Source: the human T2T-CHM13v2.0 reference genome, Homo sapiens. Taken from it: 64,000 nucleotides of DNA. Where the stretch lies: NCBI RefSeq assembly GCF_009914755.1, contig NC_060938.1, one strand, 5' to 3'. The translations under genes and the position numbers were made by a program. How positions within the stretch are numbered: position 1 is the stretch's first letter; each line of letters starts with the position of its first letter. Of the stretch, positions 3,401 to 51,631 are shown piece by piece. A model generated the notes under the pieces. It searched no databases, had not been told where the DNA came from, and saw nothing but the letters and a program-made list of their open reading frames with translations.

Positions 3401-4131
3401 AAAAGCTTTTGAGTCTTCCACACATTTGCAGAATATGAGACAACAATGGCTGCAATCAAATTTTAAAAACAACAGTGGCCAACAGGGCTGGAAAAAAGTC
3501 TCTTTGAATTAAATAGCACATTCAGTCAGTCCCAGTGGTCATAAACTTGGGGCAAACATTCATTTCAATACGTGAAAGAAAGAGATAAACAAATGAAGAG
3601 TATATCCAACGGTCCCATTCTGAGCTTCATGCAGTAATTCCTTCTGCTGTGATACATGCGTATATATTTTTTCTATTTTCTTTCCTTTTCTTTTTTCATA
3701 GACTAATACAAATATCTTTCCTCTCGAAAATAATTTTGTTTGGGGGGGTGCCCAACAAGTCTCAGTTTAAAATGCTTTTTATTCAGCAACCTTTTGTAGT
3801 CATTTGAAAGCAATTTTACCATATAGAAATCCTCTAATGTATCAGTCACTCGCAAGTCTAACATGTGTTAAAAATGAATCTTCTCTCCATTCCAACCCCC
3901 TCTATTTAATACAAGGCATCTCTATACCTTTGGAGACAATATGAACAAGAAGAAAATTCTACCCAGTTCATGGCAAAAACAGAAGTTAGCAACATGGTCC
4001 ATGCAGCTGCAACATTGCATTTAAAATTCAGTTTCCTCATAGGAAGAGGGCTAATCCTGCCCCCGTAATTCCCTACAGCCAAAATGTGCCCCCTCCCCGC
4101 GTGACAGTGCAATGCAAAGACACTAGCACGC

Positions 4132-20332: not shown

Positions 20333-20792
<460 letters not shown>

Positions 20793-33639: not shown

Positions 33640-34400
33640 ATGTTACTGATATTTTTTGAAGTCTTCACTGCCAGTTCTGTGAAAAGGGAAAGAACAGAAA
33701 TAGGGAGAATCTTTAGAAGGTGTAATAGGACAGGAAGAAGATGACAATGCTTGGTCTAGGTTGGAGCACCAGAGATGGTAAGAAGTGGTGGAATTAGAGA
33801 TATGTTTGTTGATAATAAAGTTGATAGAACTTGCTAATCTACTGAATATGGAGAGTGAGGGAAAAGGGAGCCGTGAACGATTCCTAGGTTTCTCACTCAA
33901 GCAGGTAGTTATGAATGGTAGAGTCATTTATTAAAATGGAGAAAGTCTAAGAACTAAATGTGACAGAGGAATCCATACTTCTGTTTTGGACATGTTGAGT
34001 TTGAGAAAGTGATTAAAGGCAAGGACTCTGGATGAAATGGCTTGAGTTTGAATCCCAGATTCACTGCCTACTAGCTGTGTGACCCTGAGTAAGTCATTTA
34101 ACCTCTCTGTGTGTCATTTTCCTATTCTGTGAAATACAATAGAAATAATAATTTGTCTGCTTCGTAAAGCTGTTGTAAGAATCAAACTGTTAATTAATTG
34201 GTAGGGATCATTGTGTGATTCACTGATTTATTCCAAGCTCCTAGAACAGTGCCTGGAAGAGAGTGGGTGCTTAATAAATACTGCTGAATGAAGGAATGGA
34301 TGTCTATTACACATTTGAGAGGAGAGGTTGAATAGATAGATATATAGACATACAACTCTGGAAATTAGAGCCAGACATAAGTTGGGAGTCATCAGTAAAT
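33640..34400 (-). mobile_element. L2 fragment with a nested MIR (34020-34200)
   Basis: ttctgttttggacatgttgagtttgag L2 motif; MIR core ctagctgtgtgaccctgagtaagtcatttaacctctctg. Confidence 0.7.
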
Positions 34401-34461
34401 AGATATTTAAGTTAAGAAAGAAGTTATAATATAAGGAAAGTTCTTTAGATCTTAAAACTTA

Positions 34462-34963
<502 letters not shown>

Positions 34964-35301
34964 TCAGATATTTATGTTAAATGATGGACAAAAAATTCAA
35001 CATAGGCGAAGGAATTGAAAGTAAAATATGAAAACAAAACCCCAAAATTGTTGAAGGAATTATGGGCAAATATTTACACTGATCTTGAGATGGGGAAGGA
35101 CTTATTAAATGTTAACGCCATGGAACAAATCACAAAGAAGAATAATAGATACTATTTTTAATAGATGACATAAACATTTAAAACTTCAGAACATTAAAAA
35201 GTCATAAATAAAATTTTTAAAATGACAAACTGGCAAAATATATTTGAAATATAATGGATAAATGATGAATATTACATCATTATAATTTATTAAGAAAAGT
35301 A

Positions 35302-37848
35302 GGTTTGCAGCTGCAGCACATCAAAGTTACCGATTTTTTATGATGTTTGGTGGCTATGAGACTATAGAAGCATATGAAGATGATCTTTATAGGGACGAGT
35401 TATCTAGTGAACTGAGTGTTGATAGTGAGGTGGAATTTCAACTCTATAGCCGAATTTATTATGCCCAAGATCTTGATGATGTCATCAGGGAGGAAGAACA
35501 TGAAAAAAAGAACTCTGGGAATTTGGAATCTTCGAGTAGTAAACCAAATCAGAAGAAGCTAATTGTCCTTTCAGATAGTGAGGTCATCCAGCTGTCAGAT
35601 GGGTCAGAGGTCATCACTGTCTGATGAAGATAGTATTTATAGATGTAAATGAAAGAATGTTAGAGCTCAAGCACAAGAAAATACCCATGGTCCTTCTGCT
35701 TTTCTTCAATCTAATGAGCTGTTTGATAAGAAATGCAAGAGTGATATTGAAGAGAGATCAGGTGTAATCCAAGAGGCCATGATTATAGAGGTCAGTTCAA
35801 GTGCAGAGGAAGAGAGCACCATTTCAGAAGGCAATAATGTGGAAAGCTGGATGCTACTGGGATGTGAAATAGATGATAAAGATAATGATATCCTTCTCAA
35901 CCTTCTGGGATGTGAAAACTCTGTTACTGAAGGAGAAGATGGTATAAACTGGTTCATCAGTGACAAAGACATTGAGGCCCAGATAGCTAATAACCAATAA
36001 CCTGGAAGATGGACCCAGCGATATTATTCAGCCAATGAAAACATTATCTGTAGAAATTGTGACAAACACGGCCATTTATCAAAAAACTGTCCCTTACCAT
36101 GAAAAGTTCGTTGCTGCTTCCTGTGCTCCTGGAGAGGACACCTCCTGTATTCCTGTCCAGCCCCCCTTTGCAAATACTGTCCTGTGCCTAAGATGTTGGA
36201 CCACTCATGTCTTTTCAGACATTCTTGGGATAAACAGTGTGACCAATGTCATATGCTAGGCCACTATACAGATGCTTGCACAGAAATCTGGAGGCAATAT
36301 CACCTCACGACCAAACCCAGACCACCCAAAAAGCCGAAGACCCTTCAAAACCATCAGCCTTAGCATATTGCTGTCACTGCATGCAAAAGGCCATTATGGA
36401 CACAAGTGTCCAGAAAGAGAAGTGTATGACCTGTCTCCAGTATCTCCATTCATCTGCTACTATGATGACAAATATGAAGTTAAGGAGAGAAAAAAGAGAG
36501 TAAAATAAAAAATAAAAGTACTCAAGAAGAGTGGGGATATCCCAGAGCCATCCAAGCTACCTTACATAAAAGCAGCAAATGAGAACCCCCATCATGATAT
36601 AAAGAAGGGCTGTGCCTCATTAAAAAGCAACAGGTGGCCTCAAGAAAATAAAGAAACACAAAAAGAAATGAAGAATAAGAATAGAAAACTGGGAGAAGCA
36701 CAGGAAGGCTGACAGACATCGTGAAGTGGATGAGGATTTTCCCTGGGGCCCCAAAACCTACTCTTCTCCTGGCAGTTTTAAAACCCAGAAGCCTTCCAAG
36801 CTCCAAGCCCTTTCATCATTCATCGCATTGCCATATATCGAGAGAAGACAAGTCTCCCAAGGAGGGTAAGAAGGGCAAGAGAAGAAAAAGGAGAGATGCT
36901 TGGAAGATGATGACAATGATAACTTATTTCTTATTAAGGAGAGGAAAAAAAAGTCTTAAACTGTCAGGCAGCCTCTAATGTGGCTTTCCGTTGTTCATTT
37001 GGCCTTTGCGTCCATAACCTTCTGGCAATGTGTTTATTATCTGTGATTAAATAAAGTCAGTTTGGGTTTTGCATTTTTAATTTCAGCCATTCCTAGAGTT
37101 GCTGGACATCCATGGAGATCTCAATTATCTATGTCCAACAGGTTATTAGGTAAGAAAGTAGAAAGATAAACCTGGACTTCTCCTGTTCCAATATGTCATC
37201 TTTACTCAGAATCCTAGGGCTAGGAAGAAGAACTCATCTTTTCAAGAAAGCTTTTTCAAAATCCTTTGGAAAAAAAACCGCATCAAAGGTAATTCATCCT
37301 CAGCATGAGTATGAAATTAAATCCTTGTAGGAAGAGAAATTAACACTAAGAAAAAGTCTTCAGTATTTTTCAACTTTTTTTTTTACATTGAAAAGGACAA
37401 TAACTATAAATTTACATCCAGCTTTTCTCGCTGCTGAAGTTGTTATCAGAATCTTCCTTTGGACAAAACATCACAAGCTGACTGTAAAAACAAAAGCGCC
37501 ATCATTGAAGCCCTGAAGAGGCAGGGAATTGGGCTTCAGCAAAATACAGGTAAAGAATCCATCCGGTATAAATATCAGAAGACAGATTTCCTAAAACAAG
37601 TGAAAGAGACATCAAAAATTTTAACGTAATCACAATGAAATCATTTTTTACCACTTTTACAGTGATGTTTGAAGTGGACTGTCACTCAGATCTGTAGAGA
37701 TGACTATTACTCAAAAAATTGTTTTGTTCTCTTGTATGTTTTTAACTACCACAAAGCTATATAGAATTTTTGGTACTTGTGGATCTTTTGTACTTCTCAT
37801 ACCCTAATGTCAGAATAAGAAAAATAAAATATCAAATAGGAAAAAAAA
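35302..37848 (+). pseudogene. ZCCHC7: Processed pseudogene of ZCCHC7 (AIR1/2-like Zn-knuckle protein of the TRAMP complex); CDS remnant 35340-36959, 3'UTR to ~37840
   Basis: Translation [20 protein letters not shown]...; CX2CX4HX4C knuckles ([14 protein letters not shown] etc.); C-terminus ...RKKKS-stop. No introns; several frameshifts and stops. AATAAA at ~37823, A-tract, and TSD AA(G/A)AAAAGTA at 35292-35301 / 37842-37851 at a TT|AAGA L1-EN site inside an old L1. Confidence 0.96.
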
Positions 37849-37851
37849 GTA

Positions 37852-38790
37852 TTAGCACACTGATAAAAGAATTGACAGAATAAATAAATGGAAAATTCAT
37901 AGAAGAAAAATACAAATAAATAACAAACATACGAATAACTTTAGTCTCTAGCAATTAATCAAAAACATATAACTGGGCAGAAAAATTTTTTGTATCAAAT
38001 TAGCAAAAACTATAAAAATTATAATATTCAGTGTTACCAAAGATGTAGAGAAATTAGTACTCACAACACATTTTAGATGGGAAAACTCTCCAGTAGGAGT
38101 CTTGAAAATAAATATCAAAAGCTTAAATTTTTTTAGCATCTTTCATTCCAAGGTTTCATTTTTAGGAAAATTAAAATATGCCATTAAAAGTAATGATGTC
38201 AATCTGGTATTTTTTAATATGAAAAGATGTCCAAAATAGATTACTAAGAGCAAAAAGGGTTCAAAACAGAGTATACTGTGGTTCCTGTTTTGTTCCAATA
38301 TGCTGTCTGAAAGAAAGATCAAAATGAATACATTGAAACCATAGAAATGATTATCTTTTGGTGGAAAAATTGGGGGTGATTTTATTTCAAATTTATACTT
38401 TACATATGCCAAATTTTCTGTAGTGGACACATTTCCTAATTATAAAACATTTCAGTTATAAATTCAATATAGTACTATGTAGGATATTTCTATTAGAAAA
38501 GTTTACTAAGATAGTTTGAGATTCAAAATAATGGTTGATGAAATGTAATATTATAATTGAAATTCATTCATGATAAAAAATGGATCTATGAAAAGATCAT
38601 CAAAGAATATGGAAGCCATGAGGTGAAAAATTGATGGGGAATGTTGTAATGGATATATCAGTTTGGCAACACCTGGGCCCCTGGATTAGTTTTAGCACCA
38701 CTAAAAGTAGAACAATCAGACATTAAGACATTATGTGTCTTGCACTGTGATACAATAGGATGTACCTGGCACTACCAATGAATATTCTTG
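37852..38790 (+). mobile_element. Old L1 (L1ME/L1MC-like) 3' fragments; host of the pseudogene, continuing from 34960-35290
   Basis: Degenerate L1 ORF2-end/3'UTR motifs on both sides of the retrocopy. Confidence 0.6.
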
Positions 38791-38931
38791 AAGAAAGAAA
38801 GACAGGAAGGAAGGAAGGAAGGAGGGAAGGAAGGAAAGAGGGAAGGAAGGAAAGGAAGGAAAGGAAGGAAGGAAGAAAGGAAGGAAGGAAGGAAGGAAGG
38901 AAGGAAGGAAGGAAGGAAGGAAGGAAGGAAG
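38791..38931 (+). repeat. (GGAA)n polypurine microsatellite
   Basis: ~140 bp nearly pure purine tract including 13 uninterrupted GGAA units at 38879-38930. Confidence 0.97.
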
Positions 38932-38942
38932 GGGGAACCTAA

Positions 38943-39405
38943 ATGGATGTCCAGCAACTCTAGGAATGGCTGAAATTAAAAATGCAAAACCCAAACTGAC
39001 TTTATTTAATCATAAATAATAAACACATTGCCAGAAGGTTATGGACGCAAAGGCCAAATGAACAACGGAAAGCCACATTAGAGGCTGCCTGACAGTTTAA
39101 GACTTTTTTTTCCTCTCCTTAATAAGAAATAAGTTATCATTGTCATCATCTTCCAAGCATCTCTCCTTTTTCTTCTCTTGCCCTTCTTACCCTCCTTGGG
39201 AGACTTGTCTTCTCTCGATATATGGTAATGCGATGAATGATGAAAGGGCTTGGAAGGCTTCTGGGTTTTAAAACTGCCAGGAGAAGAGTAGGTTTTGGGG
39301 CCCCAGGGAAAATCCTCATCCACTTCACGATGTCTGTCAGCCTTCCTGTGCTTCTCCCAGTTTTCTATTCTTGTTCTTCATTTCTTTTTGTGTTTTCTTT
39401 ATTTT
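38943..39405 (-). pseudogene. ZCCHC7: Inverted partial duplicate of the ZCCHC7 pseudogene (copy of 36645-37113)
   Basis: Reverse complement aligns to 36645-37113 with 4 substitutions and 2 indels by eye; same frameshifted C-terminal peptide KEGKKGKRRKRRDAWKMMTMITY. Confidence 0.96.
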
Positions 39406-39437
39406 GCTGGGATTACAGGCGTGAGCCTGCGCCCGGC
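39406..39437 (-). mobile_element. Alu 5' stub (first ~32 nt only)
   Basis: Reverse complement gccgggcgcaggctcacgcctgtaatcccagc, fused directly to the inverted copy. Confidence 0.88.
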
Positions 39438-41140
39438 TGAATCAGGAGCATTTGTAAGGCTGCATTCCTCTTCCAGGATACTGCATGTCTAAATCCAACA
39501 AGATGTTCTTTGAGATCTCTGAATTGGGAGGCTGTAAGCTAACCTCGCATTTTCTGTTACACAACTAGCTCAGCACACTTGCTCTGCACCTTTGCTGCCC
39601 ACTAGAATAAAAGTGTCATGAGGATAGGGCCCAGGCTTGTCAGAGTCACCCTCATGACCCCACCCCCTGCTACAATGCCTGGCACATAGTAAGTGCTCAA
39701 TGAATACTATTTGACTAATTGATGTAGTACCTTTTTGTTACAAAATGATTTCCCAATCCCCTCTACCCTATTCTTAATATAAAGATTTGTGTTTTTTTAC
39801 TGAGAAATGGCAAATAAAGGCTTTGGACCCCCTGAAGATTAAATACTAAAATCCCCATAACAATTTTTTTGGTGGTGTTCTTATGGGACTGCGTGAATTC
39901 GAAGGACGTTTATAATGCCTCATAATGCTCTAGGAAGTGAGCCAAGAACTCCACCATCACTAGGAGTTTCAAAACCTTGAGAACTTTTCTCCCGGTGTGT
40001 TTAAGAGTATGCAGGCTCATTCTGCGCAAGAAATGTACTGGCTTATGTTGACATTTTTGTCTTTCCCTACCTCCCCACTAAGTACCACGGCAGTTTCTTT
40101 TCAGGGTCATACACGATTCCAGCAGCCTTTTTGGTGAGTGGAAGATAGCCCTACATGCTTCCCCCAGCTCACACGGCTCTAATAAGAGACAATCCCCGCA
40201 ACACAGTACAGTTTCCCAGCAGGATAAAAACTAGTTTCTAAAAGGTAATATTTCTCTCTTGAGAAAGCATAGTTTGTAACTCTGGCACTATCAAATTTCC
40301 AGGTCATCTTTGCTTGCTGGGAAAAAGAATCCTTATGAAGAGAAGTTGCTCCCTGGAGGGAGAAGAAGGCAACAATTGCCCCCTGAACCGACCCAGTGTC
40401 CTGGAAGGATGGCTACAATGGACCCCAGGGAGGCCGCCAAGCTGTTGGTCAAAGGAGGCATGGGTGACCATAGAAGGGAAGATCCCTTAAATGGAATGAC
40501 TTGCGTGGCCCCTCAGGAAAGCTCTCACAAACCGACCAACGCGGTCACCAACCATGCTCTGATCATTTTCAAGTTGTTGAAGTTGCTCAGCGGATTAATA
40601 GGATATTGCACTGGCTTTCTCAAATGCACACACACAGAATCACTTAATGCCATTTTCAAGGACAAAAAAAAAAAAAGAGAGAGAGAGAGAGAGAGATCCA
40701 AAAGCCCTGCAAGTGAATAGAAAATAATAACAGCATAAAACAGACCCATCCTCCTCACCACCAAGCAGCGCTCCCCCACCAACCAAACAGCCAGCTCATG
40801 TCTCCTGTCTGTCCAGCAGGGAGAACACGTGATCTCCCACGGCATCTGCCTTGTACACTGTAAACCCTCTTCTGTCCCATTTCTTCTTCGTTGGGTCACC
40901 TCAGAAATAGAGAAGGGGGCTGTGCTAAGGAAAGTCCAGCTGAAAGTGCACACCCAATTTCCAGCCTCATTCTAGGCCAGAGAACACAACAAGGCAACTT
41001 CTTTGTGACCTCTGGAGTTTACCTTAATTTTTCAAAAGTCTAACTAGATCTAGTAAAGGGAGGGGGAAAAAAGTACTTGATGTAGAATTGCCTCCTGGAT
41101 GCCTGATTCAGGTAGAGGTTTACAACATAATTATTTGGTC

Positions 41141-41264
41141 ATATTTACCTAATGTCTTACCTGCTCTATTATCTGTTTTTTCAGATGTGTGCTGTTTTTG
41201 ATTTTTAATTGCTCTTATTTACCAAATGTCTTATTCATTATATTATCTGGTTTTTCAGATGTGT
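41141..41264. repeat. Imperfect ~74-bp-period tandem duplication, each unit carrying TTATCT-N7-CAGATG
   Basis: tatttacc(t/a)aatgtctta...tattatctg(t/g)tttttcagatgtgt at 41142-41190 and 41216-41264. Confidence 0.8.
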
Positions 41265-42359
41265 CCCCTTTTTTATTTCACTGTAAAGAGAGCCTGGCCT
41301 AGCACAACTGGCGACTCGCTTAGTAACCCAAGAACTGTCAAGCACCCTGTCCAGGTTGAGCTCAGAGATTTCATAGCTGTGACTGATGTTTCTTTTTATC
41401 TTATAAAAAGCAATGCTTTTTATAAGAACTAAATAGCTTGGCTTCAAAGGGAAAGTTTAAATACTGACAATTTTTGTGTAGCAAATGCCTTCAAATGTTC
41501 AAAAAGATTGTTTCTAAGGTATCCCCATCATTTTCTAAAAACAAACAAGCAAACACACAAACCTTCAGGATCTTTTGTAATTTAAAGAAGTTACATTAGT
41601 GCTTACATTTCCAAAAATACCCATATGGATAAATATAGTCTAGTGTGTCCATGGGAAAAGTTAACAAGGGAAACATATTTCCAAAAAATACAAAGTCAGT
41701 GACAGACTGAATGAATATAATATACTTGATAGTGTTTTGGATGTTCTATTTTATGTCTTGCCATTCTTTTTTTTTCACTCAAATACTAGACAGAAAAAAT
41801 ATTTTGGTATTTCTATTCTCTTCTAAGAAAGTCTAGGCTGCTTTACTTGCGGCCAAGCACAAAGTTAACTAGAATCCTTTAATAATATAGCTCACTGTAT
41901 AGATTCAGATAAGCTATGGGAAAAATCATGTCCAACAAAAGATCATAACGACATAGAGAAAATACCTGTAGCAGAGCATATTCCTGTTTTTCTTTTTCTA
42001 TCCAAACCAATGTTTAGAAGGAAGTGCATTATGTTCCCTCTTAAAGATTTTCCTTTCCTTCCTTTCCTTTCTTTTCCTTTTCCCTCTTAAAGCTTTTCTT
42101 CCTATCCTTTGTTTGACCGACGACATTATTCCTTGAGTTTTAATCAGCACTCACAAACTATATATACTGTCTCAGTCAGTTCAGTCAGTGTAATGCCATA
42201 GACTAGTTGGCTTAGCAAACATTTATTTCTCACAGTTCTGAAGCTGGAAGTCCAAGTCCAACATCAGACTGCCAGCCTATGCCCCTACACGGCCTTCCTT
42301 GGTGCATGCATATAGGGGAAGTCATAGCTTTTCTTCTCTTTTTAAAAAATTTTTATTGT

Positions 42360-50085: not shown

Positions 50086-51631
50086 TGTGTCCGGAATTGG
50101 TGGGTTCTTGGTCTCACTGACTTCAGGAATGAAGCCGCGGACCCTCGCGGTGAGTGTTAACAGCTCTTAAGGTGGCGCGCCTGGAGTCTGTCCCTTCTGA
50201 TGTTCAGATGTGTTCGGAGTTTCTTCCTTCTGGTGGGTTCGTGGTCTCGCTGGCTCAGGAGTGAAGCTGCAAACCTTCGCGGTGAGTGTTACAGCTCTTA
50301 AGGTGGCGCGTCTGGAGTCGTTCGTTCCTCCTGGTGGGCTCGTGGTCTCACTGGGCTCAGGAGTGAAGCTGCAGATCTTCGCGGTGAGTGTTACAGTTCA
50401 TAAAAGCAGCGTGGACCCAAAGAGTGAGCAGTAGCAAGATTTATTGCAAAGAGCAAAAGAACAAAGCTTCCACAGTGGTGAAGGGGACCCCAGCGGGTTG
50501 CCAATGCTGGCTTGGGCAGCCTGCTTTTATTCTCTTATCTGGCCCCACCCACATCCTGCTGATTGGTAGAGCTGAGTGGCCTGTTTTAACAGGGCGCTGA
50601 TTGGTGCGTTTACAACCCTGAGCTAGATACAAAGGTTCTCCACGACCCCATCAGATTAGTTAGATACAGAGTTTCCACACACAGATTCTCCAAGGCCCCA
50701 CCAGAGCAGCCAGATACAGAGTGTTGATTGGTGCATTCACAAACCTTGAGCTAAACACAGGGTGCTGATTGGTGTGTTTACAAACCTTGAGCTAGATACA
50801 GAGTGCCGATTGGTGTATTTACAATCCTTGAGCTAGACATAAAGGTTCTCCACGTCCTCACCAGAGCAGCTAGATAGAGTGTCGATTGGTGCACTCACAA
50901 ACCTTGAGCTAAACACAGGGTGCTGATTGGTGTATTTACAATCCCTGAGCTAGATATAAAGACTCTCCACGTCCCCACCACACTCAGGAGCCCAGCTGGC
51001 TTCACCTAGTGGATCCTGCACCGGGGCTGCAGGTGGAGCTGCCTGCCAGTCCTGCGCTGTGCGCTCGCATTCCTCAGCCCTTGGGTGGTTGATGGGACTG
51101 GGTGCCGTGGAGCAGGGGGTGGTGCTCGTCGGGGACGCTCGGGCGCACAGGAGCCCATGGAGTGGGTGGGAGGCTCAGGCATGGCGGGCTGCAGGTCCCG
51201 AGCCCTGCCCCGTGGTAAGGCAGCTAAGGCCCGGCGAGAAATCGAGCGCAGCGCTGGTGGGCCAGCAGTGCTGGGGGAATCAGTACACCCTCTGCAGCCA
51301 CTGGCCCGGGTGCTAAGTCCCCCATTGCCCGGGGCCAGCAGGGCTGGCTGGCTGCTCCGAGTGCGGGGCCCACCAAGCCCACGCCCACCGGGAACTCCAG
51401 CTGGCCCGCAAGCGCCGCACGCAGCCCCGGTTCCCGCTCGTGCCTCTCCCTCCACACCTCCCTGCAAGCTGAGGGAGTGGGCTCCAGCCTTGGCCAGCCC
51501 AGAAAGGGGCTCCCACAGTGCAGTGGGGGGCTGAAGGGCTCCTCAAATGCCACCAAAGTGGGAGCCCAGGCAGGGGAGGTGCCGAGAGCAAGCGAGGGCT
51601 CTGAGGACTGCCAGCATGCTGTCACCTCTCA
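50086..51631 (-). mobile_element. Complete LTR12C (ERV9) solo LTR
   Basis: Minus strand starts TGAGAGGTGACAGCATGCTGGCAGTCC and ends CCAATTCCGGACACA; CpG-rich U3, tandem CCAAT/GATA repeats; flanks ggaa/gaaa (imperfect 4-bp TSD). Confidence 0.98.
50490..50935 (-). promoter_or_regulatory. ERV9/LTR12 enhancer-promoter: NF-Y (CCAAT) array and AATAAAA TATA-like box, firing towards lower coordinates
   Basis: Repeated gattggt (CCAAT on minus) at 50561-50931; cctgcttttatt at 50520-50531; known LTR12 promoter layout. Confidence 0.8.

What the first reader, a model, noticed from the sequence alone, without database searches (positions are those of the whole stretch)
36645..39405. Near-perfect 463/469-bp inverted repeat of pseudogene DNA with a 1.83-kb spacer
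38943-39405 is the reverse complement of 36645-37113, with only 4 substitutions, a 1-nt indel and a 7-nt micro-duplication (ctccaag, arm 1 only) by manual alignment. This is far more identical than typical inverted Alu pairs and is made of mRNA-derived sequence spanning the ZCCHC7 stop codon. Any transcript across it folds into a long stem, a substrate for ADAR, Dicer, PKR or MDA5. At DNA level it can mediate inversion of the spacer or arm-to-arm gene conversion.
Basis: seen in the sequence. Interest (0 to 1): 0.8.

Follow-up and report, generated by a model that had tools for sequence, protein, structure and literature searches.

The report
Late inverted copy of ZCCHC7 retrocopy piece
A 463-base piece of a dead, reverse-transcribed copy of the ZCCHC7 gene was later copied backwards 1.8 kb downstream, giving a real but probably inert inverted repeat in a gene-poor stretch of human chromosome 14.

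Summary
The inverted repeat is real and as described: 36645-37113 against 38943-39405, with 458 matches, 4 substitutions, one 1-nt indel and one 7-nt tandem duplication. In the whole genome the sequence occurs only here twice and in the last exon of ZCCHC7 on chr9.

- **Arm 1** lies inside an L1-type processed retrocopy. This retrocopy runs to about 37848, some 690 nt beyond the RefSeq end, so 720 nt of the "spacer" is also retrocopy.
- **Arm 2** lies about 1.1 kb beyond the retrocopy's A-tail. It sits between an (AGGA)32 tract and a 33-nt Alu stub.
- **Origin of arm 2:** both arms share 31 substitutions and 3 indels against the parent gene, so arm 2 was copied from the retrocopy, not from ZCCHC7.
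- **Best reading:** a late DNA-level template-switch or fold-back repair patch, roughly 4-9 My old if there was no gene conversion. The main rival is an older copy kept alike by gene conversion.

No transcript is annotated here. Two long-read inversion callsets (44 sample columns; 65 genomes) list no inversion at this site. No paper names the locus. This is an ordinary member of a known kind, of modest interest.

The parts
35303..37833 (+). Processed (intron-less) retrocopy of ZCCHC7 mRNA. The coding part is broken into short ORFs.
   Evidence: 35321-36560 matches eight separate chr9 exons (37150047-37380603) joined without introns, at 91-97% identity; the last exon matches 36517-37833 = chr9 37380560-37381866 at 90.1%; the longest ATG ORF in the retrocopy is 94 aa. 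RefSeq ends the pseudogene at 37156. The origin of 35303-35320 was not found.
37834..37848 (+). Remnant of the retrocopy's A-tail (13 of 15 bases are A)
   Evidence: homology to the parent stops at 37833, just after AATAAG/AATAAA signals at 37814-37828. The window then has an A-rich run where the parent has unrelated sequence.
35292..35301 (+). Putative target-site duplication, 5' copy (AAGAAAAGTA), preceded by TT
   Evidence: Read. It matches 37842-37851 at 9 of 10 bases. The match is weak because it overlaps the A-tail.
37842..37851 (+). Putative target-site duplication, 3' copy (AAAAAAAGTA)
   Evidence: Read.
36645..37113 (+). Arm 1: the source copy inside the retrocopy. It holds the last ~104 codons of ZCCHC7, the stop codon (36957-36959) and 154 nt of 3'UTR. 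It carries 3 derived substitutions and a 7-nt tandem duplication (36795-36801).
37114..38942 (.). Spacer, 1829 nt. 37114-37833 is retrocopy 3'UTR, 37834-37851 is the A-tail and putative TSD, and 37852-38803 is essentially single-copy flank with only weak old-repeat matches.
38804..38932 (+). (AGGA)n polypurine microsatellite of 31.8 units, ending 10 nt before arm 2
   Evidence: It is one of only two long purine/pyrimidine tetranucleotide tracts in the 64-kb window.
38943..39405 (-). Arm 2: the secondary, inverted copy of 36645-37113. It carries 1 derived substitution and 1 extra A.
   Evidence: It shares 31 substitutions and 3 indels with arm 1 against the chr9 parent.
39406..39438 (-). 33-nt stub of the 5' end of an Alu, in antisense orientation. 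The rest of the Alu and its other flank repeat are missing.
   Evidence: the reverse complement aligns by eye with the first ~35 nt of the window's own Alu at 34560; there is no second copy of the 16 nt that follow the stub, so no Alu target-site duplicate is left.

Best explanation
An L1-made processed retrocopy of a long-3'UTR ZCCHC7 mRNA inserted here tens of millions of years ago (35303 to about 37848). Much later, a DNA break or stalled fork just past the (AGGA)32 tract, at 38942/38943, was repaired by copying. The free 3' end of the + strand used the + strand of the retrocopy 1.83 kb behind it as template. This could have been by folding back on itself or by switching to the lagging-strand template. 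The end copied 463 nt, from 37113 back to 36645, and was then joined to the other broken end inside an antisense Alu. Most of that Alu was lost and only 33 nt remain. The product is an inverted repeat with a single-copy spacer.

Shown here: the anatomy, the direction of copying (arm 1 is the source) and the late timing relative to the retrocopy's divergence. Inferred: the break, the role of the purine tract, the loss of the Alu in the same event and the type of repair.

Today the repeat most likely does nothing. It could pair as RNA if transcribed, and it could invert the spacer by recombination, but neither is seen.
For: 1. Arm 1 is contiguous with the retrocopy on both sides. Exons are fused upstream, and the 3'UTR continues for 720 nt downstream to polyadenylation signals, an A-rich tail and a putative 10-nt target duplication. 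Arm 2 lies about 1.1 kb beyond that end, so it is not part of the original insertion.
2. Both arms differ from the chr9 parent in the same way at 31 substitutions and 3 indels. They differ from each other at only 4 substitutions and 2 indels. At every one of those 6 sites one arm still equals the parent: 3 substitutions plus the duplication are derived in arm 1, and 1 substitution plus 1 A in arm 2. This is the pattern of a copy taken from the already diverged retrocopy, followed by a little independent decay.
3. Arm-arm divergence is 4/462 = 0.87% (Poisson 95% range 0.24-2.2%). Retrocopy-parent divergence is 7.4% (34/461) in arm 1 and 7.6% (54/706) in the 3'UTR beyond it.
4. Both edges of arm 2 are sharp. 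It has no A-tail and no flanking duplication. One edge is 10 nt from a 129-nt polypurine tract. The other cuts an Alu down to its first 33 nt, and no Alu target duplicate is left.
5. The geometry is that of fold-back copying: position 38943 is the complement of 37113 and the spacer is the loop. Spacers of 766-70,466 bp (median 3,428) were found at all 21 sequenced human fold-back inverted duplications (Hermetz 2014, section read). The 1,829 nt here falls in that range. Fold-back templated inverted insertions at breaks, with the other end captured by end joining, are documented in yeast (Yu 2024, abstract).
Against: No pre-event allele or ape orthologue was available, so neither junction microhomology nor the age could be tested. 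As the sequence stands, only 1 nt (A) is shared at the outer junction, and nothing can be said about the inner one. High arm identity is equally what gene conversion between older arms would give. Known human fold-back duplications are large and terminal. The yeast fold-back patches are mostly 5-34 bp. A 463-nt interstitial patch lies between these documented sizes. The closeness to the purine tract is a post-hoc observation (roughly 1 in 1,000 for a random point in this window, my estimate). The tract could also have grown after the event.
Confidence: 0.55

Rival explanations
1. The inverted copy is old, made soon after the retrocopy inserted and perhaps tens of millions of years ago. The two arms have been kept 98.7% alike by repeated arm-to-arm gene conversion, as in the large human palindromes.
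For: Shared differences against the parent (31 substitutions and 3 indels) are equally expected under conversion. The longest perfect arm-arm run is 210 nt, which is long enough for homologous pairing. The 1.83-kb spacer keeps the arms close together.
Against: Both edges are sharp, with no lower-identity fringe outside the arms. All 6 arm differences are simple one-arm-derived states. The arms are short compared with the palindromes in which conversion is documented (recalled). The junction cuts an Alu whose 33-nt stub still keeps 3 CpGs (weak evidence), which places the event after that Alu inserted.
Confidence: 0.25
2. Arm 2 is a captured cDNA. A transcript of the retrocopy, or of ZCCHC7 followed by conversion, was reverse-transcribed and used to patch a break without L1 endonuclease. 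This would explain the missing A-tail and target duplication, and the small Alu piece as a second template.
For: Arm 2 has no A-tail or target duplication and is joined to the very 5' end of an Alu. This resembles the chimeric, 3'-truncated patches described for endonuclease-independent L1 insertion (recalled, not read here).
Against: Arm 2 carries the retrocopy's own differences, so the RNA would have to come from an unannotated transcript of the retrocopy and land 1.8 kb from its source. A local DNA template is simpler. After the Alu stub comes unique flank that looks like the Alu's own insertion site, with an A-rich start on the Alu's strand. This fits a resident Alu rather than a copied fragment.
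Confidence: 0.07
3. The duplicate arms are the footprint of an inversion made by staggered breaks, or of later recombination between the arms, so that the spacer has been flipped at least once.
For: Inverted duplications at inversion breakpoints are a known signature (recalled). Inverted repeats are known to mediate recurrent human inversions (titles and abstract starts of Aguado 2014 and Giner-Delgado 2019, search listing only).
Against: In CHM13 the spacer starts with the 3'UTR running straight on from arm 1, in the same order and orientation as in the chr9 parent. The spacer is therefore in its original orientation. No inversion is called here in the 44 sample columns or the 65 genomes, although those sets list inversions as small as 866-874 bp.
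Confidence: 0.05
4. Arm 2 is an assembly artefact of T2T-CHM13.
For: None from my calls.
Against: The arms differ at 6 places and are separated by 1.83 kb of unique sequence, with unique flanks. A chimeric fold-back read would give a perfect palindrome with no spacer.
Confidence: 0.02

Closest known systems
Fold-back / template-switch inverted duplications (Hermetz 2014, human; Yu 2024, yeast; FoSTeS/MMBIR models)
   Same: An inverted copy is separated from its source by a single-copy spacer, and the copy starts exactly where a fold-back primer would start. The spacer of 1,829 nt lies within the human range of 766-70,466 bp. The far end is joined with little or no homology.
   Different: The human cases are large terminal duplications that pass through a dicentric chromosome. 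The yeast patches are mostly 5-34 bp. This one is a 463-nt interstitial patch fixed in the germ line. Junction microhomology cannot be read without the ancestral allele.
Inverted-repeat pseudogene loci that give hairpin RNA and endogenous siRNAs (mouse oocyte loci as cited in Chan 2013; human psiPPM1K)
   Same: Both are partial retrocopies carrying an inverted repeat that could fold into a hairpin (passages of Chan 2013). One strand of the stem is antisense to the parent mRNA. 111 of 443 21-mers of arm 2 match the parent exactly, with a longest run of 58 nt.
   Different: No transcript or small RNA is known here. The psiPPM1K hairpin is a short miRNA-like fold (MFE -40.4), not a 460-bp stem with a 1.8-kb loop.
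Human inverted repeats that mediate polymorphic inversions by non-allelic homologous recombination (Aguado 2014; Giner-Delgado 2019; Porubsky 2023)
   Same: Two highly identical inverted arms flank a short unique segment.
   Different: No inversion is called at this locus in the two callsets checked. The arms are short, at 463 nt.
L1 twin-priming inversions of retrocopies
   Same: Part of a retrotransposed sequence lies in inverted orientation next to the rest.
   Different: Twin priming (recalled model) puts the inverted part at the 5' end, inside the target duplications, with little or no overlap. Here the inverted part is a true duplicate. It lies 1.1 kb beyond the 3' A-tail and shares the retrocopy's later mutations.

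Membership tests
L1-mediated processed pseudogene (for the element that holds arm 1) | Exons joined without introns | tested here: met
   eight chr9 exon matches spread over 230 kb lie end to end in the window.
L1-mediated processed pseudogene (for the element that holds arm 1) | 3' end at a polyadenylation site followed by an A-tail | tested here: met
   homology ends at 37833, after AATAAG/AATAAA at 37814-37828, and a 15-nt A-rich run follows.
L1-mediated processed pseudogene (for the element that holds arm 1) | Target-site duplication at a TT|AAAA-like site (motif recalled) | tested here: inconclusive
   9 of 10 bases match between 35292-35301 and 37842-37851, and the 5' copy is preceded by TT. 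The match overlaps the A-tail, and the exact 5' end of the retrocopy is unresolved.
L1 twin-priming inversion | Inverted segment at the 5' end of the insertion, inside the target duplications | tested here: not met
   Arm 2 lies about 1.1 kb beyond the A-tail and putative duplication.
Independent second retrocopy of ZCCHC7 | Own A-tail and target duplication; own divergence history from the parent | tested here: not met
   There is no A-tail on either strand. Arm 2 shares 31 substitutions and 3 indels with arm 1.
Fold-back / template-switch inverted duplication | Inverted copy separated from the source by a single-copy spacer | tested here: met
   spacer of 1,829 nt, within the published 766-70,466 bp.
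Fold-back / template-switch inverted duplication | Inverted microhomology between the spacer end and the start of the copy, read against the pre-event allele | not testable with these tools
   Only the derived allele is held, and no ape genomes are available.
Inverted-repeat-mediated polymorphic inversion | Both orientations of the spacer seen among haplotypes | tested here: not met
   There is no call at chr14:51.2 Mb (T2T) or 56.9-57.1 Mb (GRCh38, my estimate from anchors) in Porubsky 2023 Table S1 or Logsdon 2025 sheets 37 and 38. Callset sensitivity for small repeat-flanked inversions is limited, and the Logsdon file was cut when stored.
Hairpin-RNA / endo-siRNA pseudogene locus | Inverted repeat of pseudogene sequence able to form a long stem | tested here: met
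   461 of 469 arm-1 bases pair with arm 2, and the duplex is -871 kcal/mol.
Hairpin-RNA / endo-siRNA pseudogene locus | One transcript spanning both arms, with small RNAs or A-to-I editing mapped to them | not testable with these tools
   No expression, small-RNA or editing data were available. The supplied gene table shows no transcript.
Palindrome maintained by gene conversion | Arms older than their divergence implies (orthologous arms in other species; within-species identity above between-species identity) | not testable with these tools
   No primate genomes are held. Paper reading closed before the ape structural-variant tables could be opened.

The most novel reading that the evidence does not exclude
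The repeat is a hominid-age hairpin gene in the making. If a transcript runs through 36645-39405, it forms a ~460-bp double-stranded stem, and the arm-2 strand of that stem is antisense to ZCCHC7 mRNA (111 of 443 21-mers match perfectly). It would then feed ADAR editing or Dicer, and could damp ZCCHC7 in some germ-line or early embryonic cell type. ZCCHC7 is recalled to be a nuclear RNA-surveillance factor. This would be a primate counterpart of the mouse oocyte pseudogene hairpins.
Probability: 0.04. Interest if true: 0.6.

Novelty: new member of a known kind. Interest (0 to 1): 0.25.

Why it matters
This is a clean, datable example of a small templated inverted patch. The source, the copy, the loop, a neighbouring purine tract and a truncated Alu are all readable in one haplotype. 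Ape genomes could turn it into a worked case of how short inverted repeats arise in the germ line.

It also corrects the annotation: LOC440180 extends about 690 nt further than RefSeq shows. Beyond that there is no sign of function. The site lies in a gene-poor region, no transcript is annotated, and no inversion is called in 65 genomes. The RNA-sensing and inversion scenarios remain hypothetical.

Tried and rejected
- **Twin priming and an independent second retrocopy:** rejected on position, the lack of an A-tail and the shared mutations.
- **False target duplication at 37157:** my first guess was a target duplication at 37157, the RefSeq 3' end. It was wrong, because parent homology simply continues there.
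- **Origin of 35303-35320:** a 19-nt pattern search with up to 2 mismatches gave 83 genome hits but none in the ZCCHC7 region of chr9. The exact 5' end of the retrocopy stays open.
- **Second copy of the Alu stub's flank (its target duplicate):** none within 3 mismatches apart from a chance-level hit at 3770 (44 of 100 shuffles do as well).
- **Rfam on 34000-41000:** 0 matches at gathering score.
- **Literature:** 0 papers for LOC440180 and 0 for 'ZCCHC7 pseudogene', 'ZCCHC7P1' or 'ZCCHC7P'. These searches cover the full text of the held library only.
- **Inversion tables:** nothing at this locus in Porubsky 2023 (its PDF supplement was unreadable), Logsdon 2025 (file cut when stored) or the small supplements of PMC13721702.
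- **Ape structural-variant tables:** not seen. Kronenberg 2018 is not held, and paper reading closed before I could open the bonobo-genome supplements.
- **Junction microhomology:** cannot be judged without the ancestral allele.
Full report
**Observation.** The repeat finder reports two blocks, 36802-37113/38943-39254 (312 nt, 99%) and 36645-36801/39248-39404 (157 nt, 97%), offset by 7 nt. A global alignment of 36645-37113 with the reverse complement of 38943-39405 gives 458 matches, 4 mismatches and 8 gap columns. The gaps are a 7-nt tandem duplication at 36795-36801 in arm 1 and one extra A in arm 2. The arms are 1829 nt apart.

A search of the window's own genome found this sequence at only three places: arm 1, arm 2 (E = 6e-227) and chr9:37380688-37381197 at 91% identity. 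Of the 25 inverted pairs shown (40 found) in the 64-kb window, the other 23 are 72-89% complementary.

**What the arms are made of.** The chr9 match is the last exon of ZCCHC7. The gene name comes from the supplied annotation of the pseudogene, and the chr9 locus is as I recall it.

- Window 35321-36560 matches eight separate chr9 exons spread over 230 kb, laid end to end at 91-97%. The element is therefore a processed retrocopy.
- Its reading frame is broken, with a longest ATG ORF of 94 aa.
- In the parent's last exon one frame is open up to a TAA. The equivalent TAA is at 36957-36959, inside arm 1.
- The arms therefore hold about 104 codons, the stop codon and 154 nt of 3'UTR.

**The retrocopy is longer than annotated.** RefSeq ends LOC440180 at 37156. 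Homology to the parent's last exon in fact runs unbroken from 36517 to 37833 (chr9 37380560-37381866, 90.1%). It stops just after AATAAG/AATAAA signals at 37814-37828. Then comes a 15-nt A-rich run where the parent has unrelated sequence.

A 10-nt motif at 35292-35301, preceded by TT, recurs at 37842-37851 with 9 of 10 matches. This is a plausible but weak target-site duplication.

Two consequences follow:
- 720 nt of the "spacer" is retrocopy 3'UTR in its original order and orientation.
- Arm 2 lies about 1.1 kb outside the retrocopy.

The rest of the spacer is essentially single-copy, with only weak matches to old repeats.

**Direction and timing of copying.** In the three-way alignment the two arms differ from the parent in the same way at 31 substitutions and 3 indels. 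At each of the 6 arm-arm differences one arm still equals the parent. Three substitutions (36676, 36830, 37043) and the 7-nt duplication are new in arm 1. One substitution (opposite 37041) and one A are new in arm 2.

Arm 2 was therefore taken from the already diverged retrocopy, not from ZCCHC7 mRNA. Alternatively, it has been homogenised with the retrocopy since.

- Arm-arm divergence is 0.87% (Poisson 95% range 0.24-2.2%).
- Retrocopy-parent divergence is 7.4-7.6%.
- With recalled primate substitution rates of about 0.5-1.1e-9 per site per year, the retrocopy is roughly 35-60 My old.
- If there was no conversion, the duplication is roughly 4-9 My old (1-22 My at the Poisson limits).
- Per arm, about 2 changes followed the copying, against 31 shared differences before it. 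The copying therefore falls in the last 6-11% of the retrocopy's history.

**Junctions.**
- *Inner junction (38942/38943).* It lies 10 nt after a 129-nt (AGGA)32 polypurine tract. Only two such long tetranucleotide purine/pyrimidine tracts occur in the window.
- *Outer junction (39405/39406).* It abuts a 33-nt stub that matches the first bases of an Alu in antisense orientation, compared with the window's own Alu at 34560. The Alu body, its T-run and its other target duplicate are missing.
- *General features of arm 2.* It has no A-tail on either strand and no flanking duplication. One A could belong to either side of the outer junction. The inner junction cannot be judged without the pre-event allele.

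**Mechanism (inferred).** The geometry is that of fold-back or leading-to-lagging template switching. A + strand 3' end at 38942 that primes on the + strand at 37113 and copies back to 36645 gives arm 2 exactly, and leaves 37114-38942 as the loop.

Human fold-back inverted duplications all show such a single-copy spacer, 766-70,466 bp long with a median of 3,428 (Hermetz 2014, section 8 read). Yeast breaks acquire fold-back inverted patches whose other end is captured by end joining (Yu 2024, abstract read).

I infer three further steps:
- The purine tract, a known kind of fork obstacle (recalled), set the break or stall.
- The other end was resected into the Alu.
- The 463-nt patch bridged the two ends.

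None of these steps is shown.

**Rivals.**
- *Gene conversion between older arms* fits the shared differences equally well and cannot be excluded without orthologues. The sharp edges and the simple one-arm-derived pattern lean mildly against it.
- *A cDNA patch* would need an unannotated retrocopy transcript landing next to its own source.
- *A staggered-break or recombinational inversion* is not seen. CHM13 has the original spacer orientation, and no inversion is listed here. In Porubsky 2023 Table S1 (T2T coordinates, 44 sample columns) the chr14 rows jump from 28.76 to 54.81 Mb, although calls as small as 866-874 bp are listed. In Logsdon 2025 (65 genomes, per the abstract start) there are 0 IDs starting chr14-512 in the T2T sheet, and 0 starting chr14-569 or chr14-570 in the GRCh38 sheet (file cut when stored). 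The GRCh38 position of 56.98-57.05 Mb is my estimate from two anchor pairs.
- *An assembly artefact* is unlikely, given 6 arm differences and a unique spacer and flanks.

**RNA-level claim.** A hypothetical + strand RNA of 36645-39405 folds with an MFE of -1213.5 kcal/mol. In that fold 461 of 469 arm-1 bases pair with arm 2, and the arm duplex alone is -871 kcal/mol. With DNA parameters the duplex is -578 kcal/mol. Arm 2 would be antisense to ZCCHC7: 111 of 443 21-mers match the parent exactly, with a longest run of 58 nt.

This resembles hairpin pseudogene loci that give endo-siRNAs, such as psiPPM1K and the mouse and fly cases cited there (Chan 2013, passages read). However, the supplied table has no transcript here, Rfam finds nothing, and I had no expression or editing data. 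The claim is a possibility, not a finding.

**Novelty.** No held paper names LOC440180, 'ZCCHC7 pseudogene', ZCCHC7P or ZCCHC7P1. The repeat is a new member of a known kind, a small templated inverted duplication. Its anatomy is unusually legible, but there is no evidence of function.

**Limits.**
- Aguado 2014 and Giner-Delgado 2019 are cited from the search listing only.

Noticed in passing
window 37157-37848: RefSeq ends pseudogene LOC440180 at 37156, but homology to the ZCCHC7 last exon continues to 37833 and is followed by an A-rich tail. The retrocopy came from a longer 3'UTR isoform, and the annotation is about 690 nt short.
   Followed up: yes
window 38804-38932: (AGGA)n microsatellite of 31.8 units (TRF score 212), with degenerate AAAG/AGGG units to its left from 38790. 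It is likely length-polymorphic. GGAA tracts of this length are recalled to act as EWS-FLI1 binding sites in Ewing sarcoma.
   Followed up: no
window 39408-39461 and L009 (chr18:30727931-30727986, minus strand): The Alu stub plus the 24 nt of flank after it match a chr18 locus at 50 of 56 bases, including 19 of 24 beyond the Alu. This could be chance among about a million Alus (number recalled) or a shared older repeat at the insertion site.
   Followed up: partly
window 35303-35320: The first 18 nt of the annotated pseudogene lie upstream of the first exon match (35321). They found no counterpart in the ZCCHC7 region of chr9 within 2 mismatches. They may come from a 5' exon, or they may not be retrocopy at all.
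   Followed up: partly
window 20367-20501, 41131-41278, 50708-50954: Other tandem arrays in the window: (TTTC)n of about 30 units, a 74-nt unit x 2, and a 41-nt unit x 6.2 at 67% matches.
   Followed up: no
window 36825, 36840, 36990, 37009: At four sites both arms keep a CpG where the present chr9 parent has CpA or TpG. This suggests these differences arose by CpG decay in the parent lineage, not in the retrocopy.
   Followed up: no
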